Shown: positions 1 through 18,442, numbered from the stretch's first letter. The stretch is DNA of 64,000 nucleotides from Bacilli bacterium (GCA_050953065.1 JBMNLZ010000002.1:224001-288000), one strand, 5' to 3'. Program-made: numbers and translations. The notes: generated by a model from the sequence alone, not told the origin.

Positions 1-1
1 A

Positions 2-3000
2 AAAGGATTAATAATTTTAATGATGCTAATTTTAATAAATTTTAATGTTGAATTAAAAGCAGCTGGAAATGAGTTTGTAGGTCAAAGTGCTGGAATAACA
101 GAACAAGATATAAAAAATGCAATAAAAATTACAGACAAAAACATTAATTATGAAACTAATATAACGTTTATTTCGCATGGTTTACAAGGTAGCGCAGCTC
201 ACTGGAGCAATATAATGGAGATGTCTTCTGCCCTTAACAGTTATGAATTTCAATATAATCATAATTCGATTATTGAATGTTTAAGAAGGCGATGCAATGC
301 AGATGTATATAAGATAGAAGACTTTAATACAAGTTATGTAATAGAAGATAATCAAATTGTTGGTGTAACACCACATTCATTTAAACTGAGAAAACTTATA
401 GTTGACAGTGTTGAAAAAATTTATAAAGAAAATGAATATATAAATTCAATTACAAATATGAATAACCATATTGTTATAATTTATCAATCTTCTAATGAAA
501 CAAATGATAAAATCTCTGATTTTGCGTATAAAGAATTGGAATTTGCAATAAACAAAATTACCTACGATGTTATACAATTAATGGAAACGAAAGTAAAAAT
601 AAATTTAATTGGTCATAGCAGAGGGGGGATTTTAAATATGAAATATGCTATAGAATATCCTTATAATGTTGATGGTTTATTTAGTGTTGGTACCCCTTAT
701 AACGGGACTAATTTGGCTAGCATATATAATTTGTTATCAAGTGCATTTCCTTCAAATTCGGGAGATCCGTTTGGATTAACAGATTTAATAAATTCACCTG
801 GAGGAAGTGAAATTATAAGTATTAATCCTGAAAACAATCATTTAAAAACCGCTTGGTTGAATATGCATGAAGAATATTCACCAAACATCAATTTTCATGC
901 AATTGCAGGTGAAACAGGTATAACACATTTGATTAAAGAATTAATAGATATTCAAAATATGGCTGGGGGGAATGCGACCTTAAGCGAAGTGGTTAATATA
1001 TTGTTTAGTGCTTTAATTGCGCTTGAACAAACATATATTAGTAATGGAATAACGCCTAATACTGATGAGAGTTCTCCTAATAGAAAACCGTATAATTCAC
1101 AAAATTTAAATTTAGAAGAGGAGCCATTGGTTAGTACGGCCGCTTTTATTTCGAGTGCACTTTTATGTTTTGGATTAAGTATAGAGAATGAGGATTATTT
1201 AGCTCTTAGTGAATTATTAATTAACTGCCGTTATTCATTCGCTGAAGGCGAGTTATTTTTAAGATCTGATTTATTTAGTCATACTTACTCACAACAGGCC
1301 GATGGCTTTGAATTTGGACTTAATGATAATATAATTTTAGTAAATAGATACAAAAAAATATTTACAGGAAATAATTCTACATATGAAATGAAAGCAGCTA
1401 ATTCTGTAGGAGTAGTTCATAATAGTGAGACAAAAGATTTAGAAATAATTAATTATATTTTATTAAATATTAATATATCTAGAAATGACAATAAAGTAAA
1501 TACTTGCTTTATTAATAAATACAATGATTCGTGCTTGGCATTTATGGGAGTTGTAATTAATAGCACTGAAAATAATGTTCATATTTCTTTGCCCAATATA
1601 ATAACTTACGATTTATATGGGGATGGAACATATATGATTCACAACGTAAAAGGCATTTCAAGATTTTTTTCTAAGAGTTTAAATAATGACAAGGTCACTC
1701 AAATTAGTTTTGGGAATAAAATAAGCATAATTGAGCAAGGGGCTTTTAATAGCTTTGATAATGTTATAGCATTTAATGTAGATGCAACGAGCGAATATTT
1801 TTGTAGTAATTCGGGTAGTTTGTATACTAAAAATAAAAAAAGTTTAATAAAGTATTGTAATGGTTCATCTTTCACAACAGCATTTATTTTGCCGAATGAA
1901 ACCACAAATATTGAGTCTTTTGCTTTTACAAATAATAATTTTTTAACAAGTGTAGACCTTAATAATGTAACAATGGTTGGAGAAAAGTGTTTTTATAATG
2001 CTTCTAATTTAGCTAGTATTGTCGGCAATCAATTGTGCTATGCTTATGATTTTGCATTCCATTATACTGAATGGCTTGACAATATAAGTAATACTGAATC
2101 AACAAATCTAGGCAAAGTATTAATAAAGTACATTGATAACTCACAACCAAAAAAAACTAAATTAGTGGTTAATCAATATTCTTGTGTATATTCATATGCT
2201 TTTTTGAATAGTGAAAATTTAGTAGAAATAATTTTCAACACTGAAGAGTTACTTGTGAATAGATATGCATTTGTAGATAATATTTCGTTAGAAAGAGTAA
2301 TGCTTTTAGTAGAACAAGTTTTTGTAATATGTCCATATTCTTTTGTTAATAATAACAATCAGTTTACGTGTTATTATTTAGAAAATGTATATATTAATGG
2401 ATTTGCAAATTTTAATATATATAGGAATCGAGGTTCTTGTGTTCCCATATCTAGATATGATTTGAATTGTAGAAGCGATGTAAATGATTTTAATAAAAAC
2501 TTGGGAAAAGGAATGTCATTAATCTATCAATTAGATGTTGATTGTGCAAAATCATATAAAATTACATCAAGTTCTACATCAGCATTTGAAATGAAAATAT
2601 ATGATCAAAATATGAATTTGATAAATGATATTGTCGCTACAATTTCAAATGATGAATTATCTGGAATAACGACTGGTACAATTACAAATTATTTAAGCCC
2701 AGGAAAATATTTTTTGAAAATAAAGTACAATGATAGTAGCAAAAGCGGAATTATAAAAACAAATTATAAAGCTACATGGCCAGTAAAAACTTACAATGTA
2801 CATTATAGCGATGTTGAAAATAAAAATAATATTTTAAATCATCTACATAAAATTTCTAAACCAATTAGTAATATTTACAAAAACGAATTAATATACGCTA
2901 ATTGTAAAGGCACAGGTTTTTATGAAATAAAACTTACCGGAATAAAAGAAGATGGAACTGTCATTAATTTCCCAGAAAAATCTATAAAAATATATAATAG

Positions 3001-4183
3001 TGCTGATAAGACCGAATTAATGCAAAAGTTTGCACTTGAAGAAAATCCATTGTTAGCAAAAAATGCATCCAATTCTAATACTGTGTATGTATATTTGACA
3101 AAAAATACAGGGTATTATATTGATATAGAATTGTATGATAAAGATTTTGTATCATTATATCTCGACATAACTTTGGCGAATATTCAAGAAATAGATATTT
3201 TTGATTTGAATAATTTAACTTCGAATGAAAATATAAATATAACAAATGAAAGTGATAAAAAGGGAGATTATGTAAAAAAAATAAAAATAAAACAAGCATG
3301 TCAAGTAAAGTTAGAAGTAGAATATGAGGGGTATCAGCATCAAAATGTAGTCATCATTCTAATGAAAATAGAATATGATAGTTTGTCAAATGAACAAACA
3401 ATAAATTTAAAATATATTGATTATCTTAATAAAGATAAAACTACGAATAATGCGAATAGCGGTGTGATTTTAGATTTAGAACCTGGAAATTATTATATTG
3501 GATACTTTAATTTGAGTAACGGCCAAATTACTATTATGAAACTAAAAAGAATTGTTAGCAATAATATTACTAATATCAATTGTGGACTACTCCCTGATCG
3601 TAGCATCCATTTCCCATATGGAAGTCAATTGTCAATTTTAGAAAAAGATGTGCCTCCTTTATACAAAAGTTATCAAGGGACTAATATTACCGTAGGTTTT
3701 ACAAGGTTAATATACTTGGACTTGGATTATGCACAATCTGATTCTAGATTAGATTATTATTGGTATTCAAGTGACAATGCTAAAGCTACTATAACAGCAT
3801 ATGCTACTATTCTTGGAAGAACTCCTGGTAATGTTACAATAATGGCGGTTTATAAAGAAGATCCATCTATCATATTTGTGAAGGAATTTACTATACAGCC
3901 AGATTTAGATAACACACCCCTAAATATAGAAATTTATCAAACCCATTCACTAAGTGAAGATGGTCCTTATCAAATAACCTTAACAGCTCAAAATAGTCCA
4001 TATGTATTTTTGCAATATTATAATTGGAGCGTTTATGTTCCGTGCCAAGAAAATGATTTTAGTGCATGGCTTGATGCTTGGGGGAATCTTGCTACTACAG
4101 GAACAGGACTTCTTTATATAACTGGTGGATATATAATTAATCCAAGGATTAGTATTACAATTTATCTGACCTTAATAGAATGA
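2..4183 (+). CDS. Large secreted protein: alpha/beta-hydrolase (PGAP1/lipase-like) head, BspA-type LRR region and conserved C-terminal Ig-like scaffold; probably 5'-truncated by the window edge
   Basis: Frame is open from base 2 (KGLIILMMLILINFNVELKAA, the tail of a signal peptide). Motifs: SHGLQG, GHSRGG nucleophile elbow, SVGTPYNG; LRR_5-like IEQGAF, IESFAF, VGEKCF; C-terminal GFTRLIY..SRLDYYWYSS..NPR. Confidence 0.8.
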   Translation, partial: KGLIILMMLILINFNVELKAAGNEFVGQSAGITEQDIKNAIKITDKNINYETNITFISHGLQGSAAHWSNIMEMSSALNSYEFQYNHNSIIECLRRRCNADVYKIEDFNTSYVIEDNQIVGVTPHSFKLRKLIVDSVEKIYKENEYINSITNMNNHIVIIYQSSNETNDKISDFAYKELEFAINKITYDVIQLMETKVKINLIGHSRGGILNMKYAIEYPYNVDGLFSVGTPYNGTNLASIYNLLSSAFPSNSGDPFGLTDLINSPGGSEIISINPENNHLKTAWLNMHEEYSPNINFHAIAGETGITHLIKELIDIQNMAGGNATLSEVVNILFSALIALEQTYISNGITPNTDESSPNRKPYNSQNLNLEEEPLVSTAAFISSALLCFGLSIENEDYLALSELLINCRYSFAEGELFLRSDLFSHTYSQQADGFEFGLNDNIILVNRYKKIFTGNNSTYEMKAANSVGVVHNSETKDLEIINYILLNINISRNDNKVNTCFINKYNDSCLAFMGVVINSTENNVHISLPNIITYDLYGDGTYMIHNVKGISRFFSKSLNNDKVTQISFGNKISIIEQGAFNSFDNVIAFNVDATSEYFCSNSGSLYTKNKKSLIKYCNGSSFTTAFILPNETTNIESFAFTNNNFLTSVDLNNVTMVGEKCFYNASNLASIVGNQLCYAYDFAFHYTEWLDNISNTESTNLGKVLIKYIDNSQPKKTKLVVNQYSCVYSYAFLNSENLVEIIFNTEELLVNRYAFVDNISLERVMLLVEQVFVICPYSFVNNNNQFTCYYLENVYINGFANFNIYRNRGSCVPISRYDLNCRSDVNDFNKNLGKGMSLIYQLDVDCAKSYKITSSSTSAFEMKIYDQNMNLINDIVATISNDELSGITTGTITNYLSPGKYFLKIKYNDSSKSGIIKTNYKATWPVKTYNVHYSDVENKNNILNHLHKISKPISNIYKNELIYANCKGTGFYEIKLTGIKEDGTVINFPEKSIKIYNSADKTELMQKFALEENPLLAKNASNSNTVYVYLTKNTGYYIDIELYDKDFVSLYLDITLANIQEIDIFDLNNLTSNENINITNESDKKGDYVKKIKIKQACQVKLEVEYEGYQHQNVVIILMKIEYDSLSNEQTINLKYIDYLNKDKTTNNANSGVILDLEPGNYYIGYFNLSNGQITIMKLKRIVSNNITNINCGLLPDRSIHFPYGSQLSILEKDVPPLYKSYQGTNITVGFTRLIYLDLDYAQSDSRLDYYWYSSDNAKATITAYATILGRTPGNVTIMAVYKEDPSIIFVKEFTIQPDLDNTPLNIEIYQTHSLSEDGPYQITLTAQNSPYVFLQYYNWSVYVPCQENDFSAWLDAWGNLATTGTGLLYITGGYIINPRISITIYLTLIE

Positions 4184-4188
4184 TATAT

Positions 4189-4226
4189 AAAAATACTCTA
4201 ATAATGAAAATTATTAGAGCATTTTT
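4189..4226. terminator. Bidirectional intrinsic terminator
   Basis: aaaaatactctaataat-gaaa-attattagagcattttt hairpin between convergent genes. Confidence 0.75.
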
Positions 4227-4262
4227 ATATTTATAGAGTAATGTTAAAAAAATTAAAAACTC

Positions 4263-5273
4263 CTATTTTTTAATTCTATTAAAGCCCATTTTTTTATAAA
4301 CATCTTTGATTTTTCTTTCGGCTAATAGACTTGCTTGTCTATAACCTTCATCTAAGATATTGTCTAGTTCATTAGATTCTACTAAAGCATTATATCTGTT
4401 TTGAACTTTTTGGATTTCTTCAGCTACAATTTCAGCTAAATCTTTTTTAAAATCTCCATAGCCTTTACCTTCGTATTTTTTTTCAATTTCTTTAAAGCTT
4501 AATCCTGTAATAGTAGAATATATCATCATAAGGTTTGAAATTCCTGGTTTTAACTTTTTATCATACTTTACAATAGCTTCTGAATCAGTAACTGCACTTT
4601 TGATTTTCTTTTTAATACTTGAGATTGGTTCTAATAGATAAATACATCCTTTTTCATTTTCAGCTGATTTATCCATCTTTTTACTTGGATCTTGTAGGTC
4701 CATGATTCTAGCGCCTTTTTTACTGATAAGAGGTTCAGGGATTTTAAAAGTTTCTCCAAAGCGATTATTAAAGCGAACACCTAAATCTCTTGTTAGTTCT
4801 AGATGTTGTTTTTGATCATCTCCAACTGGAACAAAATCAGCATCATATAATAAGATATCAGCTGCCATTAAAGCAGGATAAGTGAAAAGGGCTGATGTTA
4901 CTCCTTGAGTTTGTTTGGCTTTTTTATCCTTATATTGTGTCATTCTTTCTAATTCACCCATATAGGCAATAGTTTGCATAATATAGGCAAGTTCAGCATG
5001 AGCTGGGATTTCAGATTGAATGTATAAAGCAAGGTTTTCAGTTGACAGTCCTGAAGCTAAAAAGATTGCTGCAACATTTTTAATGTTTTGGCGTAATTCT
5101 TTTGGATCTTGTGGGACAGTTATAGCGTGTAAGTCAGCCACAAAAACAAAGAATTTATAATCTGTCATTTCTTTTTGAAGGAGTGCGAAATTTCTAAAAG
5201 CTCCTAAATAATTTCCAAGAGTTGGTGTGCCACTTGGTTTTACACCTGATAATACGATTTTCATATGGTTCAT
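4263..5273 (-). CDS. trpS: Tryptophan--tRNA ligase
   Basis: SGVKPSG-TLGN (HIGH-like), YPALMAADILL, VPVGDDQKQH, KMDKS; likely start at ATG 5264. Confidence 0.97.
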   Translation of the reverse strand: MNHMKIVLSGVKPSGTPTLGNYLGAFRNFALLQKEMTDYKFFVFVADLHAITVPQDPKELRQNIKNVAAIFLASGLSTENLALYIQSEIPAHAELAYIMQTIAYMGELERMTQYKDKKAKQTQGVTSALFTYPALMAADILLYDADFVPVGDDQKQHLELTRDLGVRFNNRFGETFKIPEPLISKKGARIMDLQDPSKKMDKSAENEKGCIYLLEPISSIKKKIKSAVTDSEAIVKYDKKLKPGISNLMMIYSTITGLSFKEIEKKYEGKGYGDFKKDLAEIVAEEIQKVQNRYNALVESNELDNILDEGYRQASLLAERKIKDVYKKMGFNRIKK

Positions 5274-5417
5274 ATCAAGATAACTTGATATTCCTCCTTT
5301 CTTTTAGCCAATATGTATTATAAGCCTATTTTTTAAAAGTGTCAACTTCTTAAATTATTTCTCTTTACCCTTTAACTTTAGTATGCTATAATTTAAATAC
5401 AAGGGAAGGGTGGTTTT

Positions 5418-5888
5418 ATGATAAAGGTATATTCATCTCCAAGTTGTATTTCATGTAGAAAAGTTAAAAAATTTTTCAAATCATATAATATTCCTTTCAT
5501 TGAAAAAAACATTTTTAAAACTCCTATTTTAAAAGAAGAGATTTTTAAAATGTTAACAATGAGTGAGAATGGTTTTGATGATATCATTTCTAGAAGATCA
5601 CGTGTCTTTCAAGAAACAAAAGTTGATTTAGAAAAAATGAAAACTAAGGAATTAGTTGATTTTATTATTGAAAATCCTAGTGTCTTAAAACGTCCGATTA
5701 TTGTTAGTGAACTTGATTTACAAGTAGGTTATAACAATGAAGATATTGAAGTCTTTCTTCCAGAAGAAGTTAGAAATAGAGAATGTTTTGAATGTTATGG
5801 TAAGAATGTAGATTGTCCTTATGTAAAAGCAATTAGGTTTGAAGATAAGGAAAAAAAAGAAAAAGATAATTGTCCATTTAAGGTATAA
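5418..5888 (+). CDS. spx: Spx/MgsR family transcriptional regulator
   Basis: YSSPSCISCRK CxxC motif and KRPII motif; extra Cys-rich C-terminal tail. Confidence 0.9.
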   Translation: MIKVYSSPSCISCRKVKKFFKSYNIPFIEKNIFKTPILKEEIFKMLTMSENGFDDIISRRSRVFQETKVDLEKMKTKELVDFIIENPSVLKRPIIVSELDLQVGYNNEDIEVFLPEEVRNRECFECYGKNVDCPYVKAIRFEDKEKKEKDNCPFKV

Positions 5889-5891
5889 AAG

Positions 5892-5918
5892 AAAAATCGA
5901 CTAGATAGTCGATTTTTT
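5892..5918. terminator. Bidirectional intrinsic terminator
   Basis: aaaaatcgacta-ga-tagtcgattttt. Confidence 0.75.
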
Positions 5919-6490
5919 TAATAAAGTCTTTTATAAGCATTCATAGCTCTTTTAATTTTCTTTTCTGCTTTTTTATATTGAATTGCTAGTTCAGAAATTA
6001 TTGCTATAAATTCTTTTTTTCCTTCATGATATGATGTTGCAACATATTCTAATTCATAATCAATTTCACCTAGATATGTACTTTCATCAATGAATAATAC
6101 GCCATTACTATATGGTAAATACATTCTCTTAGTTGAAAGACTTAAATAGTTATGAACTAATTGATCTTGAATAATTGAAGTAGTTTCAACTTTAATTTTT
6201 TCTTTTTCAATTACACCAGTTTCTTTTAAGACAGCAAATTCTTCTTGAGTAATCTCTTCTTTGAATTCGTGAATAGCATAACCTTTTTTCTTTTTTAAAG
6301 TTAGTTCAAGAGTATCATCTCTTTCTTTTACTCTTAAAGAAGCATCAACTGCTTTAAGAGAAAATCTTTTAGTATCAAAATAATGATTTGTTTGAAAGTC
6401 ATATTTATTACCATCAAACATTTCAATTAACTTATCATATTCTTCTTTAGTAAGTAGTGTTTTAAATTCAGCTTCTGTACCTTTATTCAT
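5918..6490 (-). CDS. CYTH domain protein (YjbK-like)
   Basis: EAEFKTLL, QTNHYFDT, SLRVK, DYELEY. Confidence 0.9.
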   Translation of the reverse strand: MNKGTEAEFKTLLTKEEYDKLIEMFDGNKYDFQTNHYFDTKRFSLKAVDASLRVKERDDTLELTLKKKKGYAIHEFKEEITQEEFAVLKETGVIEKEKIKVETTSIIQDQLVHNYLSLSTKRMYLPYSNGVLFIDESTYLGEIDYELEYVATSYHEGKKEFIAIISELAIQYKKAEKKIKRAMNAYKRLY

Positions 6491-6659
6491 GTTGTCCTCC
6501 TATAAAAGATAATATCTATTAAAAAGTTATTTATATTATACATAATATAATATAAAAATCAAGGGTTAAATAATATAGACTTAAAATAGATTAAAAAAAA
6601 TTTAAATTTAGATTAAATATATGTTATAATGTGTGTATATAATAATAGGAGTGTTAGTT

Positions 6660-7421
6660 ATGAAGTATGCAATTTATAGTAAAGAACCTTTAGCAGAAGT
6701 AATCCTATCAAAGTTTAAAGGAAAACTAGATTATGAAAAACCTGATTTTGTTTTTTCTTTTGGTGGGGATGGAACTATGCTTAATGCAGTTAATCAATAT
6801 ATTGATAAAATAGATAAAACTATTTTTGTTGGGATTAATACAGGTAAGTTAGGGTTTTATACTGACTTTGTTTTAGATGAACTTGACAGTATCATTACAG
6901 CAATTTCTAAAGGCGAAGTTTTTTGTCATGAATTTTTCTTGCTTCAGTATTCTTTGATTAAAGATACTCAAGTAAAGAAAGGTTATGCCTTAAATGAAAT
7001 CGCAGTTACAAATCCAATCCACACTCAAATAATAGAAGTCTATATTAATGATAAAATGTTTGAAACATTTAGAGGCACTGGATTATTGGTTTCTACTCCG
7101 AGTGGGTCAACTGGTTATAATAAGTCTTTGGGTGGAAGTGTAATGGATTCAAGTATTGAAGCAATTCAGTTAACTGAGATTGCTGCGATTAATAATAGAG
7201 TCTTTAAGTCACTAGCATCTCCTTTAATAATTCCTAAGAATAATAAAGTTTCAATGGTTGCAACTGATTCTGATAATATTTATATTAGTGTTGATGGTAG
7301 ATATGAAGAGTTTAAAGGTGTTGAAAAAATTGATGTTAAACTTTCTAGTAAAAAAGTTAAAATGTTAGGAACAAAGGATTATAGTTTTTATAATAGAGTT
7401 AAAAAATCATTTATTGAATAA
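6660..7421 (+). CDS. nadK: NAD kinase
   Basis: GGDGTML, GKLGFY, ALNE, STPSGSTGYNKSLGG; AGGAG RBS precedes ATG 6660. Confidence 0.95.
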   Translation: MKYAIYSKEPLAEVILSKFKGKLDYEKPDFVFSFGGDGTMLNAVNQYIDKIDKTIFVGINTGKLGFYTDFVLDELDSIITAISKGEVFCHEFFLLQYSLIKDTQVKKGYALNEIAVTNPIHTQIIEVYINDKMFETFRGTGLLVSTPSGSTGYNKSLGGSVMDSSIEAIQLTEIAAINNRVFKSLASPLIIPKNNKVSMVATDSDNIYISVDGRYEEFKGVEKIDVKLSSKKVKMLGTKDYSFYNRVKKSFIE

Positions 7422-7430
7422 AAAAAAGAA

Positions 7431-7453
7431 TACTTCCCCATAAAGGGGAAGTA
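7431..7453. terminator. Bidirectional intrinsic terminator
   Basis: tacttcccc-ataaa-ggggaagta between convergent nadK and clpP. Confidence 0.75.
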
Positions 7454-7456
7454 ATT

Positions 7457-8044
7457 TTATACTTTTTGTTTTTCCATAATAGAATCAATTATTCCGTATT
7501 TTAGTGCATCTTCTGCGAACATATAATTATCTCTATCAGTATCAATTGTTATTTTTTCTAATGGTTGATTAGTGTTTTTTGCTAGAATTTTATTCATTCT
7601 TTCTTTTATTTTTATGATGTGTTTGGCAGCAATTTCAATTTCACTAGCTTGTCCTCTAGCACCACCCATTGGCTGATGAATCATCACCTCACTATTAGGT
7701 AAGCAATATCTTTTTCCTTTAGCTCCACTAGATAAAATAAATGCAGCCATTGAAGCAGCCATTCCAACACAAATCGTTGATACCTCTGGTGAGATTAAAT
7801 TCATTGTATCATAAATTGCCATTCCAGCTGTAATTGATCCACCTGGACTATTGATATATAAAAAGATATCTTTTTTAGAATCCTCAGCTGCTAAAAACAA
7901 TAATTGAGCAACGATACTATTAGCCATATAATCATCAATTTCACCACTTAGTAAAATGATTCTATCTTTTAAAAGACGAGAATAAATATCATAACTTCTT
8001 TCACCTTTAGAAGTTTGTTCGATAACATAAGGTATTGAATGCAT
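7457..8044 (-). CDS. clpP: ATP-dependent Clp protease proteolytic subunit
   Basis: [29 protein letters not shown]. Confidence 0.98.
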
Positions 8045-8139
8045 AATTTAAGCCTCCTATATATATTGTAATTTTACTATTTAGAGATAAAAAAGTCAAA
8101 TGATATTAAAAATAACTGAAGAAAAAAAATAAAATAAAC

Positions 8140-8168
8140 TTGCATTTTAAAAGCTAAATAGTTATAAT
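8140..8168 (+). promoter_or_regulatory. Sigma-A-type promoter of the pheST leader
   Basis: TTGCAT-17 nt-TATAAT. Confidence 0.7.
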
Positions 8169-8174
8169 GGTATA

Positions 8175-8404: not shown

Positions 8405-8425
8405 AATATAAAGGAGAAATAAAAA

Positions 8426-9448: not shown

Positions 9449-9459
9449 GAGGTAGCATC

Positions 9460-11847: not shown

Positions 11848-11988
11848 AAAATGTTTGATTTAAAAAAACTTTGTTTTATGTTGAACTTATAAAATATGAT
11901 TTAACTGAATTTGATTATATAATTTATTCTTTGTAGGATTGTAAATGATGTGAGACATAACATAATAATTAAAAAAGAGGTAAGGAAA

Positions 11989-12741
11989 ATGAAGAAAGCG
12001 AGTACTAAGTTATTACGAGTATTAATTGTTTGTTTTTTATTGTTGTTGATGTCTGGGTGTCGATATCGATATGATCCTTATAAGGACAAAGTAAATGTAG
12101 TTGTTGAAACGGATTATTTTTATGTTCAGTTAATAGTAAAAAATGTAAAAGAACCAAGGGCTTGTATATTAGAATTAACTGATTTAGGGAAAGAACAAGA
12201 AATTTTAGTTATTCCAGAATATGTAGAAGGGCTTCCTGTAAGGACTATTGGTAGACAAGAATTTAGTACATTTGGATGGAGAATTATAAGTGATAATTTA
12301 AAGAAAGTTTATGTTCCTATAACTGTAACCTCCATTTTAAGTACTGCATTTTTAGATTGCACTAATTTAGAAGAACTTGTGATGTTATCAGTGCCTATTA
12401 ATTATAATATGCCTGATCTTTGGTCTACTGGTGGACAAGCAACAATTATTCTTTCTAATCCATTGCAAGAAAATAGACTTATTGCAGTCCTAAAACCAGA
12501 AAATATAACATTACCAGTAAATCTAGTTTTTTACTATAACTATTCTGATGCACCAAATTCTGGATATTATTGGTTTGATTATATAACTGGTAGTAATTTA
12601 TATGTTTTACCAAACAATCCCGAAAGAGAAGGATATACTTTTAAAGGATGGTATATAGATGAAGAATGTAGTATAGAGTGGGATAAAGTATTACCAACAT
12701 CAGAAACTGAAATACTTGAATTATATGCTTTATGGGAATAA
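11989..12741 (+). CDS. Lipoprotein with LRR_5-like segment and C-terminal InlB B-repeat (Flg_new-like) domain, copy 1
   Basis: Lipobox MSGC; LVIPEYVEGLPVRTIG; PEREGYTFKGWY...LYALW; RBS precedes ATG 11989. Confidence 0.8.
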   Translation: MKKASTKLLRVLIVCFLLLLMSGCRYRYDPYKDKVNVVVETDYFYVQLIVKNVKEPRACILELTDLGKEQEILVIPEYVEGLPVRTIGRQEFSTFGWRIISDNLKKVYVPITVTSILSTAFLDCTNLEELVMLSVPINYNMPDLWSTGGQATIILSNPLQENRLIAVLKPENITLPVNLVFYYNYSDAPNSGYYWFDYITGSNLYVLPNNPEREGYTFKGWYIDEECSIEWDKVLPTSETEILELYALWE

Positions 12742-13488
12742 AAAAATGAGTGTAAAATTATTTAAAATTTTTGTTATGATTTGTTTATTGTTGTTGATGT
12801 CTGGGTGTCGATATCGATATGATCCTTATAAGGACAAAGTAAATGTAGTTGTTGAAACGGATTATTTTTATGTTCAGTTAATAGTAAAAAATGTAAAAGA
12901 ACCAAGGGCTTGTATATTAGAATTAACTGATTTAGGGAAAGAACAAGAAATTTTAGTTATTCCAGAATATGTAGAAGGGCTTCCTGTAAGGACTATTGGT
13001 AGACAAGAATTTAGTACATTTGGATGGAGAATTATAAGTGATAATTTAAAGAAAGTTTATGTTCCTATAACTGTAACCTCCATTTTAAGTACTGCATTTT
13101 TAGATTGCACTAATTTAGAAGAACTTGTTGAATTATCAGTGCCTATTAATTATGATATTCCTGATCTTTGGTCTACTGGTGGACAAGCAACAATTATTTT
13201 TTCTAATCCATTGATGGAAAATAAAATTATTGCTCGTCAAAGATCTGGTGGAATACAAATACCAGTAAATTTAGTTTTTTACTATAACTATACTGATGCA
13301 CCAAATTCAGGATATTATTGGTTTGATTGTATAACTGGTAGTAATTTATATGTTTTACCAAACAACCCTGAAAGAGAAGGATATACTTTTAAAGGATGGT
13401 ATATAGATGAAGAATGTAGTATAGAGTGGGATGAAGTATTACCAACATCTGAGACTGAAATACTTGAATTATATGCTTTATGGGAATA
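12036..13488 (+). repeat. Tandem gene duplication (748-bp period)
   Basis: 12036-12380 equals 12784-13128 exactly by visual alignment; the 3' halves align with substitutions. Confidence 0.95.
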
Positions 13489-13489
13489 G
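12746..13489 (+). CDS. Lipoprotein, tandem paralog copy 2
   Basis: Near-identical to copy 1 at an offset of 748 bp; ATG 12746 follows the copy 1 stop by 4 nt. Confidence 0.8.
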   Translation: MSVKLFKIFVMICLLLLMSGCRYRYDPYKDKVNVVVETDYFYVQLIVKNVKEPRACILELTDLGKEQEILVIPEYVEGLPVRTIGRQEFSTFGWRIISDNLKKVYVPITVTSILSTAFLDCTNLEELVELSVPINYDIPDLWSTGGQATIIFSNPLMENKIIARQRSGGIQIPVNLVFYYNYTDAPNSGYYWFDCITGSNLYVLPNNPEREGYTFKGWYIDEECSIEWDEVLPTSETEILELYALWE

Positions 13490-13875
13490 AAGGAAAGATG
13501 TAGTAGAGAAAGCATTTGATAATATGAAGAATGATTTAGACTTTAGAAGATTAAGAATTCATAATGAAAACACGTTAAGAGGTAAAATGTTTATAGTGTT
13601 TATTGCTTTAATATTAAAAACATATTTATATAATATGGTAATACAAAGAGGAATAGTAAAAGAATATTCAATTAATGAAGTACTAAAAGAAGTACAAAAA
13701 ATATCTAGAATTGAATTTGATAAAAACAACTCATTGTTAACGGAGATATCAAGCGAGCAAAGAAAATTATTTAGATTATTAGAAATAACAGAACCAAAAG
13801 AGAAAGAATGTACCCTAATGTAGGGGGTACATTCTTTATTGTTTATACGTGTATAATTCTTATAGGGAATTTAGG
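13487..13875 (+). mobile_element. 5'-truncated IS1634-like (IS4-related DDE) element: transposase C-terminus plus right end
   Basis: RRKDVVEKAFDNMKNDL..LR..GKMFIVFIAL matches the Y-R-E-K helix of IS4-type transposases. It is followed by a hairpin at 13803-13837 and GGGAATTTAGG (13865-13875), resembling IS1634-type ends. The N-terminus is absent. Confidence 0.75.
13803..13837. terminator. Hairpin at the transposase 3' end
   Basis: aaagaatgtaccc / gggtacattcttt 13-bp stem. Confidence 0.6.
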
Positions 13876-13930
13876 TTGATAATACGATTATACATTAATT
13901 ATGGCAAATAACAATACTATTTTGAACGGT

Positions 13931-13964
13931 ATATGTTGACTGGGATATTTTTAAATGTTAAAAT
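13931..13964 (+). promoter_or_regulatory. Sigma-A promoter of the lipoprotein-subtilase operon
   Basis: TTGACT-17 nt-TAAAAT with extended -10 TG; 30/34 identical to 62358-62391. Confidence 0.75.
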
Positions 13965-13987
13965 ATTGGTGTAGGGGGTAAATAAAA

Positions 13988-14755
13988 ATGCGAAAATTAT
14001 TATTTTTTTTGATAACATTTATTTTGGGATTAAGTCTTGTAGGGTGCGACGACGAAATAAATGCGATTGAGAAAGTGAAAGTCCAAGCAAGACAAACTTA
14101 TTTGAACACAATCATTAAACCTCGGTATCCCGATGCTACAATAGCCGATGTGTCATTCAGACCTTTTCTTGGGGTTTATAGCAATAGCTTGGTAGCCATT
14201 TTCTATGGTGGACAGTATCACGGTAGTCAAATAGCAGTTGAGGTAACTGAGGAAATTGAGAATATAATTTTTGCATATTCCAGCGGATATCCAATCCTTG
14301 TTTGGAACGACGGGAAAATAAGTTCGCTAACGGCGGCATACGAGCAAGGGCTTTTAACAAAAGAAAATTTGACAACCATACACAATCTTTATTGCGATAT
14401 AGATGATGGAGTGGAGGTCGAAATGGAAATACAGTCAAGGCTAACTTATTTGAACACAATCGTTAAACCTCGGTATCCCGATGCTACAATAGCCGATGTG
14501 TCATTCAGACCGTTTCTTGGGGTTTATAACAACAGCTTGGTAGCCGTTTTTTATGGCGGGCAGTATCACGGTCCTCACATAGAACGTGAGGTAACTGAGG
14601 AAATTGAGAATATAATTTTTGCATATTCTAGCGGATATCCAATCCTTGTTTGGAACGACGGGGAAATAAGTTCGCTAACGGCGGCATACGAGCAAGGGCT
14701 TTTAACAAAAGAAAATTTGACAACTATACACAATCTTTATATAGGTAAAAAGTAA
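13988..14755 (+). CDS. Lipoprotein with two tandem copies of an unknown ~100-aa domain
   Basis: MRKLL...SLVGC lipobox; repeated TYLNTI.KPRYPDATIADV...SLTAAYEQGLLTKENLTTIHNLY. Confidence 0.85.
   Translation: MRKLLFFLITFILGLSLVGCDDEINAIEKVKVQARQTYLNTIIKPRYPDATIADVSFRPFLGVYSNSLVAIFYGGQYHGSQIAVEVTEEIENIIFAYSSGYPILVWNDGKISSLTAAYEQGLLTKENLTTIHNLYCDIDDGVEVEMEIQSRLTYLNTIVKPRYPDATIADVSFRPFLGVYNNSLVAVFYGGQYHGPHIEREVTEEIENIIFAYSSGYPILVWNDGEISSLTAAYEQGLLTKENLTTIHNLYIGKK
14095..14740 (+). repeat. Intragenic direct repeat, 298-bp units with a 348-bp period
   Basis: 14095-14392 aligns with 14443-14740 with scattered substitutions. Confidence 0.95.
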
Positions 14756-14767
14756 AAGGAGAAAATC

Positions 14768-17700
14768 ATGTTTAATACTAACAAAGTAAAGAAAGTATCG
14801 CGATTTAGTGCATTATCAATTATAATATCAATCCTAATATTGGGATTAATAGTATCATTTACTTTCATGAACTGCAATACTATCTACGTATTTGCTGCTG
14901 AAGGCGAACAAACCGTGTCGATGACAAAAGTTTACAGCGACGTGTCAATTGAAGAGGATTTTGATGGCAGTAGCATTATTGTTATTATTGACAATAGTCT
15001 AAGTGGGATAAACAAGCGCCATGATGTAAATTTTTTTGAAGGAATTGAAATAGTCGAAATCGAAGACTTAACCGTAAAAACAGAGAGTGCAAGAAGTCTC
15101 GTTGACAAGAAAACTTTCGAGCAGGTCTTGAAGATAAAGTTACCGCAAGATTGTAAAGAAAGTGTCATACGCGGTATTAAGCAATTAGAAAGCATAAACG
15201 GAATTAAGTATGCTGGACCCAATAGGTATATTGAAGTGGAGAGGAATCCTAATGACCCGTTTTTTACCCATGTTTCCGGCGGTGAGGCGAATCAATGGGG
15301 GCTTAATAGAATTCAAGCAAATTTAGCTTGGGATTTGACAACGGGCAATAATAACGTGCGTGTCGGGATAATCGATACGGGAATTGGTGATATTGTCGGC
15401 GGACAAGCTAATCATCCTGACTTAAATGCAAACTTAGTTGCAGGTGGAGATTTTGTTAACATGAACGGAACTACGCCGGGGCCGTTAAGAGCAGATACTG
15501 ATGGACACGGAACTCACGTTGCTGGAATTGTAGGAGGGGTTGGCAATAATAGTGTGGGAATCTCTGGCGTTAATTGGAACGTTTCATTAGTGCCGATGCA
15601 AGTCGCAACAGGTGATACAATCGACGCCGCGGCTTGCGTAAGAGCAATAAATTTTGCAACAAACACTTGGAATAACGAAAATAGAATTAGTATTTTGAGT
15701 ATGAGTATCGGTCGATATACTGAGTGGCCAGAAATAGAAACTGCGATTAGAGCGTACCCTGGACTTTTTGTTTGCTCCACAGGAAACAGAAAACAGAACA
15801 ATGATATCACTCACCATTATCCCTCTTTTTATGGTTCCGCTTTGCACACAAATCCGCTTACAAATATGATTTCAGTAGGCAGAAGTGACATTAACGATGA
15901 GCGTCCTACAGATTTGAATATCAATGCAAATTGGGGAGCGCAAACGATTACTCTTTTTGCACCAGGTCAAAACATCATTAGTACATACCCCGTTAGCGTG
16001 ACATCAAATTGGACTCCTGGATATCACAGAACATCAGGCAGCTCAATGGCAGCGCCTATGGTTTCGGGGGTAGCGGCTTTATTGTTATCAGTTAATGCAA
16101 ATCTTACAACTACTCAATTAAGAGCGGCAATCGTCAACAACGTGGATGTGTTGGACACTTTTGAAAACGACCCAACAAACGGACGTCAATGCGTAACAGG
16201 TGGACGGCTTAATGCATACAAGGCACTTAGTAGCGTAATTTTTACAACAAGTAACGTTAGTAATGGCATATCAATAAACGGTTTTATAAACGGATACACT
16301 ATGCCAAACAACACAGAATTAGTTTTACCAGATAGCTTTGCACCATTAGGAGATGAAGAACAACAACCTGTTGTTGCAATTGGGAATAATGCTTTTGCTA
16401 ATCAAACAAGCCTAACTGAAATCTCTATTCCTAGCAGTATTACAAGTATTGGAGCAAATGCCTTTGCTGGTTGTACTTCATTAAACAGTGTAATAAGAGA
16501 ATTTAATTATGATATTACTACCACTAATTGCTATTACTTAATAAGAGAAAATTTAAATAATAATTTTCTTGAAGTGAACGGAGAAACTGTCTCAAATACA
16601 AATGATATAGTTCCTTTGTACTTAAGTGCAGGCAATCATAGTATTAAAGTACAAGGGTCAAATATTTCAAGTGTTATGAGTGCTCCAACTTTAGAGAAAG
16701 TAGAACAGATTTTTCTAAACTCAAATCAAGATGTTAAAAGTAGCATTGAAAGTGGAAAAAATATTTTTCATTTTAATAATTTTGGTGGAAGGTTTGTTCG
16801 ATTTACTATAGAAGCAACTAGTAGTAATCCTAACAATCCAACTATTAGTTATTTAGAAAATGCAATAATAGTTAGAGACTCAAATGGTGTGATAAAAAAA
16901 TTTGAAAATTCTATTTTTTCTATAGAAGCAAGAAATGTTACTGATTCAAATACAATAACAGTTTATCTTCCTACAACTAAAACTTATTATGTAGAAGTAA
17001 ACTTTTCAACTACGGATATTTCCGAATTAACATTGACTGCTAGATTATTAGATAATGCATCTCAATTTAATTTATTTAATTTAAATGAAAATGCTAATTC
17101 TAACATTAATTTGTTTAACATTGGCACATCAAATGGTGATGAAATTAAGGTAATTAATATATTGCAATCAGGACAATTTAAATTTGTAGTTAATTGTGAT
17201 AATCGAACAACTAGTTCAAAATTTGTAATTATTAAAGAAAAGTTAGTTGATAATCAAATAGTTAGACAGGTTATAAATGTGTGGAATATGGATATGGATG
17301 AAAATGGGAATGGTGAAATAGTTGATTTAGAACCTGCTAAATATTATATGGGATATTTTAATACACCGGTAGGGGTAGATGTTACTATTCTAATCAATAG
17401 ACTTGTTACACAAAGCGGAAGTGATGTATTGGTAACCGATCCAGATTATATGACACCTTGTGGAAGTCAAATCAATATAATTGAAGCAGATAAAAACATA
17501 AAAAGTTATCGTCAAACATTTATAACAGAGGGATTTACAAGATTAGTATATTTTGATATAGATTATGCTCCTTCTATTTCTAGATTAGATTATTATTGGT
17601 ATTCAAGCAATTCAAGTGTAGCAACAGTTACCCCATATGGAACTGTTTTAGCATTGCCAGTAACAACAGCTACTACAGTAAAAATAATGGCTGTATTTAA

Positions 17701-18442
17701 AACAGATTGTTCAAAAGTTTTCATTAAGGAATTTACTATTTTAGATGATATAGGATTGTCATGTGAATATGATAATAGAGAAGAAATGGTAAATGATTTT
17801 CTAGATGATTATACAGCATTTTACAATGCTGCTAACAATACAAGTTTATCTAGAGTAACCTTACTTATTCCAGGAGATTCTGGCTATGATGCTAGTACGG
17901 CATTAGTGGCTAGATTAGATAATCAAAATGCTACTTTAGAATTATTTTATAACAACCTTGATTTATACAATAAGTGGATTTGGATTGTTGACTATACAAT
18001 GGAAATACGCCCTTCAAGTCAAACTGAGTTTCAAAAATATATAAACAATACAGCAACTGGAACAAGTACAATTGTAAAATATGAAATATGGGCTTTCTTA
18101 AGTAAAAGAGTAAAAACAACGTGGCCACAAACTAGTGACTATACAATAGATGAAAACGCAAATGGTTTTTGGAGTTTAATAAATGGTGAATCTATAACTA
18201 TAGATATTAATGTTACAATTCCAGCTGGTCAAACAGTTATGATTCCTTTAATAGATGCAGAAGTACCTATTAATATATTGCAATATTATTTGTGGTCTAC
18301 AGAAAATCCAGAATCCGTAACATTTGCAGATTGGGGAAAAGTATATATTAGTTCTTCGGCAATTGGACAAACGGTTGTACTTAATGGAAGTTATATTCTT
18401 AACCCTAGGGTAGTAGTTAAGATTACTGTACAAGTAGAATAA
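14768..18442 (+). CDS. Secreted S8 subtilisin-like serine protease with LRR_5 repeat and conserved C-terminal scaffold
   Basis: Signal peptide ending ..VFAAE; prodomain; catalytic IIDTG, HGTHVAG, GSSMAAP; IGNNAFAN..IPSSITSIGANAF; C-terminus homologous to ORF 2..4183. Confidence 0.92.
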   Translation: MFNTNKVKKVSRFSALSIIISILILGLIVSFTFMNCNTIYVFAAEGEQTVSMTKVYSDVSIEEDFDGSSIIVIIDNSLSGINKRHDVNFFEGIEIVEIEDLTVKTESARSLVDKKTFEQVLKIKLPQDCKESVIRGIKQLESINGIKYAGPNRYIEVERNPNDPFFTHVSGGEANQWGLNRIQANLAWDLTTGNNNVRVGIIDTGIGDIVGGQANHPDLNANLVAGGDFVNMNGTTPGPLRADTDGHGTHVAGIVGGVGNNSVGISGVNWNVSLVPMQVATGDTIDAAACVRAINFATNTWNNENRISILSMSIGRYTEWPEIETAIRAYPGLFVCSTGNRKQNNDITHHYPSFYGSALHTNPLTNMISVGRSDINDERPTDLNINANWGAQTITLFAPGQNIISTYPVSVTSNWTPGYHRTSGSSMAAPMVSGVAALLLSVNANLTTTQLRAAIVNNVDVLDTFENDPTNGRQCVTGGRLNAYKALSSVIFTTSNVSNGISINGFINGYTMPNNTELVLPDSFAPLGDEEQQPVVAIGNNAFANQTSLTEISIPSSITSIGANAFAGCTSLNSVIREFNYDITTTNCYYLIRENLNNNFLEVNGETVSNTNDIVPLYLSAGNHSIKVQGSNISSVMSAPTLEKVEQIFLNSNQDVKSSIESGKNIFHFNNFGGRFVRFTIEATSSNPNNPTISYLENAIIVRDSNGVIKKFENSIFSIEARNVTDSNTITVYLPTTKTYYVEVNFSTTDISELTLTARLLDNASQFNLFNLNENANSNINLFNIGTSNGDEIKVINILQSGQFKFVVNCDNRTTSSKFVIIKEKLVDNQIVRQVINVWNMDMDENGNGEIVDLEPAKYYMGYFNTPVGVDVTILINRLVTQSGSDVLVTDPDYMTPCGSQINIIEADKNIKSYRQTFITEGFTRLVYFDIDYAPSISRLDYYWYSSNSSVATVTPYGTVLALPVTTATTVKIMAVFKTDCSKVFIKEFTILDDIGLSCEYDNREEMVNDFLDDYTAFYNAANNTSLSRVTLLIPGDSGYDASTALVARLDNQNATLELFYNNLDLYNKWIWIVDYTMEIRPSSQTEFQKYINNTATGTSTIVKYEIWAFLSKRVKTTWPQTSDYTIDENANGFWSLINGESITIDINVTIPAGQTVMIPLIDAEVPINILQYYLWSTENPESVTFADWGKVYISSSAIGQTVVLNGSYILNPRVVVKITVQVE

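What the first reader, a model, noticed from the sequence alone, without database searches (positions are those of the whole stretch)
2880..18442. Unrelated catalytic heads share one C-terminal scaffold
Roughly the last 430 aa of the hydrolase (~2880-4183) and the subtilase tail (~16770-18442) are colinear: SNTVYVYL/SNTITVYL, DLEPGNYYIGYFN/DLEPAKYYMGYFN, PYGSQLSILE/PCGSQINIIE, KSY..ITVGFTRLIY/KSY..ITEGFTRLVY, SRLDYYWYSS in both, IMAVYK..FVKEFTI/IMAVFK..FIKEFTI, LQYYNWS/LQYYLWS, YIINPR/YILNPR. Neither protein has a C-terminal TM helix or LPXTG motif. Inference: the scaffold is a shared targeting, surface-retention or delivery module and defines the family.
Basis: seen in the sequence. Interest (0 to 1): 0.8.

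Follow-up and report, generated by a model that had tools for sequence, protein, structure and literature searches.

The report
Swappable enzyme heads, one shared tail
Two secreted enzymes of a small sludge bacterium, an esterase-type hydrolase and a subtilisin-type protease, carry the same four-domain non-catalytic tail, which in this bacterial order is recombined onto at least ten kinds of enzyme head.

Summary
The last 428 aa of the hydrolase (A) and the tail of the subtilase (B) align at 36% identity (E 1e-47). B holds an extra ~146-aa helical insert. The tail is a high-confidence all-beta cassette of four domains. D1 is a small sandwich. D2 resembles collagen-binding/PPC domains and the C. 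perfringens enterotoxin C-domain. D3 is Big_2. D4 is a diverged Big_2. Only D3 is seen by Pfam. At least 296 representative proteins carry the cassette, nearly always at the very C-terminus. Among the genomes sampled it occurs in only one order of Bacilli. Heads include S8, S1-like, M64, C92, C39-like and alpha/beta-hydrolase domains, plus several unknowns. Heads are swapped: tails 81-92% identical carry unrelated heads. In B, the S8 head and its upstream lipoprotein gene have 39-40% GC against 29% in the tail. All three family genes here follow a small lipoprotein gene, as do 28 of 52 elsewhere, and the lipoprotein type mostly tracks the head. The genome shows no PBP or sortase gene, and the cassette occurs in genomes with and without PBPs. 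The cassette's function is inferred, not shown. I read it as an outward binding or presentation arm. This is a new variant of a known kind.

The parts
1..4183 (+). Gene A: secreted alpha/beta-hydrolase with LRR_5 and the tail cassette. Its 5' end lies 19-55 nt upstream of the window, and the full frame is 1412 aa.
   Evidence: The N-terminus read from the genome has a non-lipoprotein signal peptide (..VELKA/AG).
446..673 (+). A head: DUF676 / alpha-beta-hydrolase core; the nucleophile elbow INLIGHSRGG is at nt 599-628.
   Evidence: PF05057 at 21.5 bits, cut-off 20.3; Abhydrolase_1 and Hydrolase_4 sub-threshold.
1877..2101 (+). A: BspA-type LRR_5 block.
   Evidence: 27.1 bits, cut-off 27.7; relatives score far above the cut-off.
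2453..2896 (+). A: an extra beta-sandwich-like domain (D0) upstream of the cassette. It is conserved in many relatives but was not modelled here.
   Evidence: A aligns to L019 at 41% over 572 aa, starting about 125 aa before the cassette; sequence pattern. The domain assignment is an inference.
2897..3178 (+). A cassette D1: small beta-sandwich.
   Evidence: AF2 model, (strands 7-99). It was not resolved separately by the fold searches (note).
3179..3559 (+). A cassette D2: nine-strand-type beta-sandwich like the C. perfringens enterotoxin C-domain, ColG/ColH collagen-binding domains and PPC. It is the most variable domain.
   Evidence: Z 10.3-7.8; mean pairwise identity 0.26.
3560..3898 (+). 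A cassette: conserved linker (TDP..GSQ/E) plus D3, a Big_2 Ig-like domain. It is the most conserved part and holds the four invariant residues D234, G242, R270 and T304 of the tail alignment.
   Evidence: 7quz Z 8.8, rmsd 1.6 over 72 aligned; 0.49.
3899..4180 (+). A cassette D4: diverged Big_2-like Ig domain that ends the protein.
   Evidence: hhalign of D3 against D4 gives probability 95.9%, E 5.5e-9.
11950..13489 (+). Two tandem, near-duplicate small lipoprotein genes (11950-12741 and 12716-13489) with no hydrolase gene behind them. They are 63% identical to the lipoprotein directly upstream of the hydrolase-headed relative L033.
13988..14755 (+). Small lipoprotein gene (lipobox LSLVGC, two ~115-aa repeats) ending 13 nt upstream of B. 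GC 0.387, like B's head.
   Evidence: Predicted to bind B's head with weak support.
14768..18442 (+). Gene B: secreted S8 subtilase with LRR_5, D0-like domain and the tail cassette.
15350..16144 (+). B head: Peptidase_S8 catalytic domain.
   Evidence: E 5.8e-42. H247, S426 and the surrounding motifs are invariant in 19 aligned subtilases.
16367..16624 (+). B LRR_5 block. The composition break and the start of the 59% identity with L033 both fall at about nt 16370.
16772..17752 (+). B cassette D1-D3.
17753..18190 (+). B-specific helical insert between D3 and D4. The domain recurs in five other giant proteins of this genome and in L033/P0025.
   Evidence: (pLDDT 84.3).
18191..18439 (+). B cassette D4.
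62627..63346 (+). Small lipoprotein gene (FSLVGC) ending 13 nt upstream of the third family gene. It is of the same type as the genes at 11950-13489.
63359..64000 (+). Start of the third family gene C (1827 aa, runs off the window): DUF676-like hydrolase paralogue that carries profile positions 3-313 of the cassette.

Best explanation
A and B belong to a lineage-restricted, polymorphic family of Sec-secreted hydrolases. The constant rear part is LRR_5, a D0 sandwich and a rigid four-sandwich tail cassette. The variable front part is the catalytic head. Recombination inside the constant part exchanges the head together with a small lipoprotein gene that lies directly upstream. I read the cassette as a non-catalytic, outward-facing binding or presentation arm that holds the enzyme on a polymeric or particulate target. 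D2 is the variable, ligand-facing sandwich, and the conserved linker plus D3-D4 form the rigid stalk. Any association with the producer cell would more likely come from the head-specific lipoprotein, as in the dentilisin complex, than from the tail. Shown: the homology, the architecture, the predicted fold, the distribution, the head swapping and the gene context. Inferred: binding by the tail, the roles of the individual domains, and the role of the lipoprotein.
For: Homology and unit character: 36% identity, E 1e-47. 30 of 30 database hits cover 71-100% of the tail. The tail ends within 2 aa of the C-terminus in 31 of 31 aligned proteins and within 15 aa in 147 of 153 full-profile hits. 296 representatives score E<=1e-30.
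Fold: AF2 pLDDT 86.9 and pTM 0.81 for all 428 aa, which argues for a fixed domain arrangement. D2 matches trypsinised C. perfringens enterotoxin at Z 10.3 (rmsd 3.0, 110 aligned), its C-terminal fragment at Z 9.9, a PPC domain at Z 8.0 and ColG collagen-binding domains at Z 8.0 and 7.8. D3 matches Big_2 domains at Z 8.8. Several of these D2-like domains bind ligands in their own proteins (recalled, not tested).
Head diversity: S8, M64, C92, trypsin-like, Abhydrolase_1, C39-like and heads without a Pfam match; ten multi-member head clusters.
Swapping: head type needs 25 changes on a 46-tail tree (minimum 9; shuffled mean 31.3). Tails that are 88.6% (907 aa), 92.1% (780 aa), 80.6% (563 aa) and 85.2% (893 aa) identical carry heads with no detectable similarity. 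B's rear 700 aa are 59% identical to hydrolase-headed L033. GC is 0.387 in the lipoprotein gene, 0.401 in B's head and 0.290 in B's tail; GC3 is 0.355, 0.336 and 0.141. The five closest relatives of B's head (58-63% identity) lack the cassette.
The tail does not depend on its C-terminal position: 6 of 153 proteins carry it internally or first, followed by a Cys/His-type domain.
Against wall anchoring: no PBP and no sortase match, with SPase I and II present. 44 cassette-bearing genomes have a PBP gene and 11 do not.
Lipoprotein partner: adjacent upstream on the same strand in 3 of 3 copies here and 28 of 52 elsewhere, against 114 lipobox hits in 1300 ORFs genome-wide. Its type tracks the head in 6 of 7 multi-member lipoprotein clusters. 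Complex prediction of B's head with the lipoprotein gave weak support: score 0.58, best of 3 controls 0.01. That mark was reached by 116 of 157 solved complexes and 2 of 215 mismatched pairs, but at 0.60 or under by only 18 of those 157 and by both mismatches that passed. The runs agree in at least 91% of contacts, and the partner's pLDDT is at least 81.
Against: No binding was measured or predicted for the tail, and no ligand is known. Z values near 8 for beta-sandwiches lie in the range the tool calls a common arrangement (note). The most conserved part is D3 with its linker, not D2, which would also fit a purely structural role. One lipoprotein family (cluster 0) sits upstream of three different head types (S8, S1-like and an unknown head), so a partner for the constant part is not excluded. 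The complex result is weak by the tool's own calibration and used my own alignments. A and B tails in this genome are only 36% identical, so a single shared ligand is not assured. Transcription is not shown; pieces were only found in RNA-library contigs.
Confidence: 0.5

Rival explanations
1. Self-surface retention: the cassette binds a component of the producer's own envelope (lipoglycan, capsule or a surface lipoprotein) and keeps otherwise free, signal-peptidase-cleaved enzymes on the cell.
For: A, B and C have cleavable non-lipoprotein signal peptides, whereas most large surface proteins of this genome are lipoproteins. No sortase match, so another retention route would be needed. Homologous S8 heads in other lineages carry known sorting or anchoring modules at the same position: T9SS C-terminal domain, CW_binding_1, dockerin. 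Carriers come from both sludge/digester samples and animal guts, which fits a ligand that does not depend on habitat. Lipoprotein cluster 0 accompanies three head types.
Against: Tails diverge strongly between paralogues of one genome (A against B 36%), which is unlike typical anchor repeats. The cassette occurs in genomes with and without a PBP gene, so a wall polymer cannot be the general ligand. Most lipoprotein types track heads. The only interaction tested, and weakly supported, is lipoprotein with head.
Confidence: 0.2
2. Structural role only: the tail is a spacer, or a folding and stability domain needed for export and expression, without a specific ligand. This would resemble the unique C-terminal domain of PrtP, whose deletion abolishes the protease.
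For: It is built entirely of common beta-sandwich modules. The conserved residues look like fold-core and interdomain residues: the invariant D, G, R and T lie at the D2-D3 junction and in D3, and pTM is 0.81. Passages of PMC8167434 report that removing the 259 C-terminal residues of PrtP leaves no detectable PrtP.
Against: A four-domain unit of about 420 aa, kept in 296 representatives or more and actively recombined onto new heads, is costly for a mere spacer in genomes of 1-2 Mb. The same unit also works N-terminal to a catalytic domain.
Confidence: 0.2
3. Pre-peptidase-type C-terminal extension: the tail assists secretion and is then removed, as described for PPC domains of some secreted proteases.
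For: D2 has a PPC-like fold (5sv5 Z 8.0), and most heads are peptidases. Papers on PPC-bearing proteases with several processed mature forms appeared in the search listing and abstracts; I did not read them further.
Against: No Pfam PPC match among the 25 families listed for the 47 tails. The tail is also fused to esterase-type heads and placed before a C-terminal domain in 6 of 153 proteins. No processing site is evident; I looked only at the alignments.
Confidence: 0.08

Closest known systems
PPC (pre-peptidase C-terminal) and collagen-binding domains of clostridial collagenases ColG/ColH, and the C-terminal domain of C. perfringens enterotoxin
   Same: D2 has the same kind of beta-sandwich (VIA Z 10.3 and 9.9 to enterotoxin; 8.0, 8.0 and 7.8 to 5sv5, 5iku and 1nqd). 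Like them it sits C-terminal to a secreted enzyme or toxin moiety.
   Different: No sequence match to PF04151. Here D2 is one fixed element of a four-domain cassette. Calcium-site and ligand-site residues were not examined. No collagen or claudin binding is implied.
Big_2 (PF02368) Ig-like domains of bacterial surface proteins (LigA, intimin/invasin, S-layer and phage proteins)
   Same: D3 matches Big_2 in 44 of 47 tails and superposes on solved Big_2 domains. D4 is a diverged copy. The LigA tandem Ig segment is the top Foldseek hit (E 3.4e-9).
   Different: There are only two copies, preceded by a strongly conserved linker motif (TDP..GS[QE] .. GFTR) that I did not see in the other Big_2 repeats of this genome (one search shows that they match only profile positions from about 230 onward).
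Dentilisin complex of Treponema denticola (prcB-prcA-prtP)
   Same: A small lipoprotein gene is first, followed by an S8 subtilase with a unique non-catalytic C-terminal domain of about 250-270 aa. There the lipoproteins anchor the protease at the surface, and the C-terminal domain is variable between strains and required for expression (passages of PMC8167434).
   Different: No sequence relation was found: the upstream lipoproteins match no Pfam family at E<=0.05, apart from chance-level hits. There is no PrcA equivalent. Here the arrangement is generalised to many head types, and PrtP itself is acylated whereas A and B are not lipoproteins.
Polymorphic toxin systems (CDI, Rhs and the like; recalled from general knowledge)
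   Same: A constant trafficking or binding region is joined to interchangeable enzymatic domains with a sharp identity break. A small adjacent gene co-varies with the variable domain. Orphan copies and arrays of the small genes occur (window 11950-13489; L036, L054, L093).
   Different: The orientation is reversed: the variable part is N-terminal and the small gene lies upstream. Export is ordinary Sec export. Neither toxicity nor immunity is shown. Many heads are ordinary digestive-type peptidases.
BspA-type LRR_5 surface proteins
   Same: A, B and most relatives carry LRR_5 between head and tail (19 of 45 representatives).
   Different: LRR_5 is part of the constant rear half but is not the cassette the finding describes. 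Some members lack it.

Membership tests
Big_2 (PF02368) | Sequence match to the Pfam profile at or above the gathering score | tested here: inconclusive
   A D3 scores 16.9-18.5 bits and B 14.2 bits against a cut-off of 22.8. Relatives aligned column for column pass it, for example 31.2, 30.9 and 28.3 bits. 44 of 47 tails match at E<=1, best 3.6e-12.
Big_2 (PF02368) | Ig-like beta-sandwich that superposes on solved Big_2 domains | tested here: met
   Model residues 224-337 against 7quz: Z 8.8, rmsd 1.6 over 72 aligned. Against 4hu8: Z 8.1, rmsd 2.0 over 70 aligned. Against intimin 1f02: Z 8.2. D4 is related to D3 by hhalign at 95.9% probability.
PPC / bacterial pre-peptidase C-terminal domain (PF04151) and collagen-binding domain | Sequence match to the Pfam profile | tested here: not met
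   No PPC match for A or B at E<=0.1. PPC is not among the 25 families listed (of 41) for the 47 tails at E<=1.
PPC / bacterial pre-peptidase C-terminal domain (PF04151) and collagen-binding domain | Fold: beta-sandwich that superposes on solved PPC or collagen-binding domains | tested here: inconclusive
   5sv5 Z 8.0 (rmsd 2.9, 96 aligned), 5iku Z 8.0, 1nqd Z 7.8, 3jqw Z 7.4. The tool warns that Z under about 8 may reflect only a common arrangement. The first ESM Atlas hit is a PPC/Big_2 cluster at 0.91, but recognition (1863) is below the tool's benchmark of 2300.
Sortase-anchored (LPXTG) surface proteins | C-terminal LPXTG motif, hydrophobic stretch and charged tail, with a sortase gene in the genome | tested here: not met
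   No motif and no hydrophobic tail in A or B. No PF04203 match in a genome that is 93.9% complete.
Bacterial lipoproteins | Lipobox cysteine at the end of the signal peptide | tested here: not met
   A, B and C end their signal peptides in KA/AG, FA/AE and FA/AE without a lipobox. Only 5 of 79 complete family members look lipobox-like.
Polymorphic toxin-type systems | Constant region joined to interchangeable enzymatic domains with an abrupt loss of identity | tested here: met
   The composition break inside B is shown.
Polymorphic toxin-type systems | An adjacent cognate protective protein that co-varies with, and binds, the variable domain | tested here: inconclusive
   Adjacency in 3 of 3 copies here and 28 of 52 elsewhere. 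Co-variation in 6 of 7 multi-member lipoprotein clusters. Binding has only weak support: 0.58 against 0.01 for the best control.
Polymorphic toxin-type systems | Toxicity to other cells and protection by the neighbouring gene | not testable with these tools
   Needs experiments.
Dentilisin-type lipoprotein-subtilase complex | Homology of the upstream lipoprotein to PrcB or PrcA | tested here: not met
   None of the 10 upstream lipoproteins scanned gave a relevant Pfam family at E<=0.05. That a Pfam family for PrcB exists is recalled, not checked.

The most novel reading that the evidence does not exclude
The family is a polymorphic exo-hydrolase system that works like a reversed toxin-immunity module. 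A constant receptor-binding rear (LRR_5 plus the tail cassette) aims interchangeable protease, amidase or lipase warheads at other cells or at particles. Each warhead travels by recombination together with a cognate membrane-anchored lipoprotein that shields, or docks it on, the producer. Orphan lipoprotein genes are left behind after head replacement, as at window 11950-13489, or are kept by non-producers, as in L093.
Probability: 0.25. Interest if true: 0.75.

Novelty: new variant of a known kind. Interest (0 to 1): 0.52.

Why it matters
Uncultured, genome-reduced Bacilli related to the mycoplasmas are common in animal guts and anaerobic digesters. One study, read in passages, suggested that their lack of sortases means reduced surface-protein display (PMC10868615). 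This family shows another solution. One unnamed tail of about 420 aa, or a constant rear half of about 560-900 aa, is re-used with at least ten enzyme heads. It reaches up to 10 copies per genome and exchanges heads by recombination together with a partner lipoprotein gene. That gives a defined construct for finding what these organisms attach their proteases, amidases and esterases to. It also gives a natural test bed for how modular exo-enzymes evolve. The D1, D2 and linker parts could be added to domain databases, which at present see only a weak Big_2 match.

Tried and rejected
(2) Stand-alone 'tail-only' proteins: the 14 short database hits I inspected (348-523 aa) have no signal peptide and look like fragments, so there is no evidence for head-less forms.
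(3) Internal duplication of D1 and D2: hhalign probability 2.2%, not detected.
(4) The helical insert of B: no solved fold resembles it. The best VIA-align Z is 3.2 and the best Foldseek E is 2.3. The model rests on 8 sequences, and only 2 of 5 models exceed pLDDT 80. This does not show that the fold is new.
(5) The search for related loci with the lipoprotein alignment A4 found no stretch conserved enough to search with. The single protein gave one metagenome locus, L093, which has a three-gene lipoprotein array and no hydrolase gene. Whether this lipoprotein type accompanies S8 genes outside the family is therefore still open.
(6) ORF 13431-13823 looked to me like a transposase remnant, but it has no Pfam match and no further copy in the genome. 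I do not claim it.
(7) Expression: RNA-library contigs of two studies (X15; X16 and X17 look like one data set) lie at 95-100% identity on pieces of the lipoprotein gene and of B. Contigs cannot show transcription, and I could not lay a silent control stretch, so stretches without cover mean nothing.
(8) Literature: searches returned nothing that describes this cassette or its head swapping. That covers only those term sets in the held library.
(9) The first clustering of heads over 450 aa merged groups through shared LRR_5. I replaced it with residues 41-330.
(10) Pfam on the upstream lipoproteins gave no credible family.


Full report
**Observation.** The window opens inside a long ORF (A, to nt 4183) and holds a second one at 14768-18442 (B). 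In the genome, A's frame is 1412 aa and starts just upstream of the window. BLASTP of A against B gives 121/333 identities (36%), E 1e-47, over A 968-1296 and B 679-995. A second colinear match of 21/66 covers the last ~65 residues of each. Pfam gives A a DUF676/alpha-beta-hydrolase core with a GHSRGG elbow and gives B Peptidase_S8 (E 5.8e-42). Both also have a BspA-type LRR_5 block and a sub-threshold Big_2 match in the tail. Neither ends in a hydrophobic stretch or an LPXTG-like motif. One correction: B carries about 146 extra residues (996-1141) between the third and fourth tail domain.

**What the tail is.** An alignment of A's last 428 aa with 31 relatives gave an AlphaFold2 model with mean pLDDT 86.9 and pTM 0.81. 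It is all-beta. I divide it into D1 (1-95), D2 (96-221), a conserved linker plus D3 (222-336), and D4 (337-428).
- D2's best matches are the C. perfringens enterotoxin C-domain (Z 10.3 and 9.9), HA70 domain 3 (8.9), Cry toxin domain III (8.5), a PPC domain (8.0) and ColG/ColH collagen-binding domains (8.0-7.4).
- D3 matches Big_2 domains (Z 8.8, rmsd 1.6 over 72 residues).
- D3 and D4 together match tandem Ig arrays such as LigA.
- D4 is a diverged copy of D3 (hhalign 95.9%, E 5.5e-9). D1 and D2 show no detectable relation.
- At sequence level Pfam recognises only Big_2 (44 of 47 tails). PPC is not among the 25 families listed of 41.
- D3 with its linker is the most conserved part (mean pairwise identity 0.49) and D2 the least (0.26).
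- The four invariant residues (D234, G242, R270, T304) lie at the D2-D3 junction and in D3.
This is my inference.

**Family and distribution.** A word-based search with the tail found 30 proteins covering 71-100% of it at 29-41% identity. A profile search of 1.84 billion representatives found 3371 at E<=1e-3 (which includes generic Big_2 proteins), 814 at 1e-10 and 296 at 1e-30.
- Of 173 retrieved proteins, 153 match the full profile. 147 of these end within 15 aa of the C-terminus, and 6 do not.
- Those six types, and loci L026, L028, L030, L035, L039, L044 and L060, have a signal peptide, then the tail, then a Cys/His-type domain of 200-270 aa. The tail therefore does not depend on its position.
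- In one-genome-per-species collections the tail occurs in 55 of 106 genomes of the window's own order (40 of 67 high-quality genomes, 17 of 31 genera, up to 10 matches per genome).
- In a class-wide sample it occurs in 22 of 300 genomes, all in that order's two families, and in none of 266 genomes of 27 other families.
- Named records are gut MAGs labelled Bacilli, Mollicutes, Tenericutes, Coprobacillus sp. CAG:698, Staphylococcus sp. CAG:324 and the like, plus one digester MAG.
- The window's own stretch is held by DNA runs labelled anaerobic digester, bioreactor, activated sludge and sludge.

**Heads and swapping.** Pfam on 30, 44 and 45 family proteins shows S8 (the commonest; 18 of 45 representatives), M64, C92, trypsin-like, Abhydrolase_1, C39-like, and many heads with no match. 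Clustering residues 41-330 of 54 proteins gives ten multi-member clusters and five singletons.
- On a maximum-likelihood tree of 46 tails, head type needs 25 changes. The minimum possible is 9, the shuffled mean is 31.3, and no shuffle of 200 was as low.
- Four pairs make the point directly. L029 (M64) and L031 (unknown head), from contigs of one MAG record series, are 88.6% identical over their last 907 aa.
- L050 (S1-like) and L055 (S8) are 92.1% identical over 780 aa. L011 (S8) and L012 (unknown head) are 80.6% identical over 563 aa. L057 and L027 are 85.2% identical over 893 aa.
- In each pair the heads give no alignment at E<1e-5. The constant part thus includes LRR_5, a further sandwich (D0) and the cassette.
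- In the window itself, B's last 700 aa are 59% identical to L033, whose head is a hydrolase like A's.
- The identity starts at B residue ~535 (nt ~16370). This is also where GC falls from 0.40 (head; lipoprotein gene 0.387) to 0.29 (tail; window mean 0.284). GC3 is 0.34-0.36 before the break and 0.14 after it.
- The five closest relatives of B's head (58-63% identity) lack the cassette, and one carries a T9SS sorting domain. Cassette-bearing heads are 41-58% identical to B's.
- B therefore looks like a resident tail that received a foreign lipoprotein-plus-S8-head segment.

**Gene context.** Between A and B lie housekeeping genes (TrpRS, Spx-like, CYTH, NAD kinase, ClpP, PheST), so the two genes are not one operon. 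Each family gene is, however, directly preceded on the same strand by a small lipoprotein gene.
- For A the lipoprotein gene lies upstream of the window and overlaps A's start. For B it is 13988-14755, with a 13-nt gap. For C it is 62627-63346, with a 13-nt gap.
- Elsewhere, 28 of 52 loci with readable upstream sequence show the same arrangement. The script counted 29 or 30, of which two (L072, L076) are small membrane peptides that I removed.
- The background in this genome is 114 lipobox hits in 1300 ORFs.
- The lipoproteins fall into many families. In 6 of 7 multi-member clusters the family goes with one head type. One cluster accompanies S8, S1-like and an unknown head. Because related genomes share orthologues, these counts are not independent.
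- The two tandem lipoprotein genes at 11950-13489 match the one upstream of L033 (63%) and the one upstream of C. They have no hydrolase gene behind them. I read them as left over from the head replacement; this is an inference.
- A complex prediction of B's head (45-520) with its lipoprotein (21-255) gave weak support: score 0.58, best of 3 controls 0.01.
- That mark was reached by 116 of 157 solved complexes and 2 of 215 mismatched pairs. At 0.60 or under it was reached by only 18 of the 157 and by both mismatches that passed.
- The runs agree in at least 91% of contacts, and the partner's pLDDT is at least 81.
- The nearest precedent is dentilisin. There prcB, a small lipoprotein gene, precedes an S8 protease. 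The lipoproteins anchor the complex, and a unique C-terminal domain is needed for expression (passages of PMC8167434).

**Envelope.** The genome (93.9% complete) gives no match to the PBP transpeptidase or sortase families. It has a single Mur_ligase_M match in a 428-aa frame, and it has signal peptidases I and II. Most of its large surface proteins are lipoproteins, whereas A, B and C have AXA-type signal peptides. Passages of PMC10868615 describe loss of peptidoglycan and sortases in related uncultured orders. I cannot name the window's order. Within the order, 44 of the 55 cassette-bearing genomes have a PBP match and 11 do not. Two of those 11 are only 69% and 85% complete. A wall polymer is therefore unlikely to be the general ligand.

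**Interpretation.** The shown facts are these: the tail is a fixed four-sandwich unit, it is the constant part of a recombining family, it is restricted to one order, and it is accompanied by partner lipoproteins that mostly track the head. From these I infer that the tail is a binding or presentation arm for secreted hydrolases and that any cell association runs through the lipoprotein (confidence about 0.5). Self-surface retention (0.2), a purely structural role (0.2) and a cleaved pre-peptidase extension (0.08) remain open. The boldest reading that the data allow is a reversed polymorphic toxin-immunity-like system (0.25).

**Verdict.** It is a new variant of a known kind.

Noticed in passing
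L003 about 2250-2650 (G000:C2:292820-293216), 3' end of the third family gene, outside the window: Gene C stops at a run of seven A's (..AGAAAAAAATAG). It continues in another frame as a 123-aa ORF whose first residues fit the end of D3. This could be a frameshift, a phase-variable homopolymer or an assembly error. The final domain is a second Big_2 rather than the family's D4.
   Followed up: partly
window 17753-18190; also L087-L092: A helical domain of about 145 aa with no Pfam match and no solved look-alike is inserted in B's tail. It recurs, once or twice each, in five other proteins of 690-3095 aa in this genome, often beside Flg_new-type repeats.
   Followed up: partly
window 13431-13888: The ORF at 13431-13823 has no family. 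In the best DNA run, summed contig depth over 13447-13888 is 29-54, against about 8 over B, and several contigs break between about 12600 and 13900. This suggests a repeat or a strain-variable joint exactly where the foreign segment begins.
   Followed up: partly
window 25695-29132: A 1145-aa lipoprotein has eight Big_2 repeats and a C-terminal Peptidase_C39-like domain. The bins at 26001-28000 have raised GC (0.364). The genome holds dozens of Big_2-rich giant lipoproteins.
   Followed up: no
L059, L066, L067, L068, L083: Proteins of 527-536 aa have an amidase-like head, one PPC-like sandwich and only the linker plus D3-D4 of the cassette. They lie directly behind a MACPF-domain protein gene and a MacB/FtsX-type ABC transporter gene.
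   Followed up: partly
L070, L073, L077, L078, L082: Family genes with one unknown head type are preceded by an ECF-type sigma factor gene (Sigma70_r2/r4) and a ~390-aa membrane protein that may be an anti-sigma factor.
   Followed up: no
L026, L028, L030, L035, L039, L044, L060: These are tail-first proteins: signal peptide, then the cassette, then a 200-270-aa domain with conserved NC..YA and DYHWYRQ motifs (weak DUF7689 match). It may be a cysteine hydrolase.
   Followed up: partly
L093 2237-4075; L036 and L054: Arrays of two to four small lipoprotein genes of the types found upstream of family genes. In L093 there is no hydrolase gene beside them.
   Followed up: partly
L015, L035, L045, L056: Four loci come from bins labelled Bacteroidales or Prevotella, although their cassette genes sit among Bacilli-type relatives on the tail tree. 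These are probably binning or labelling errors.
   Followed up: no
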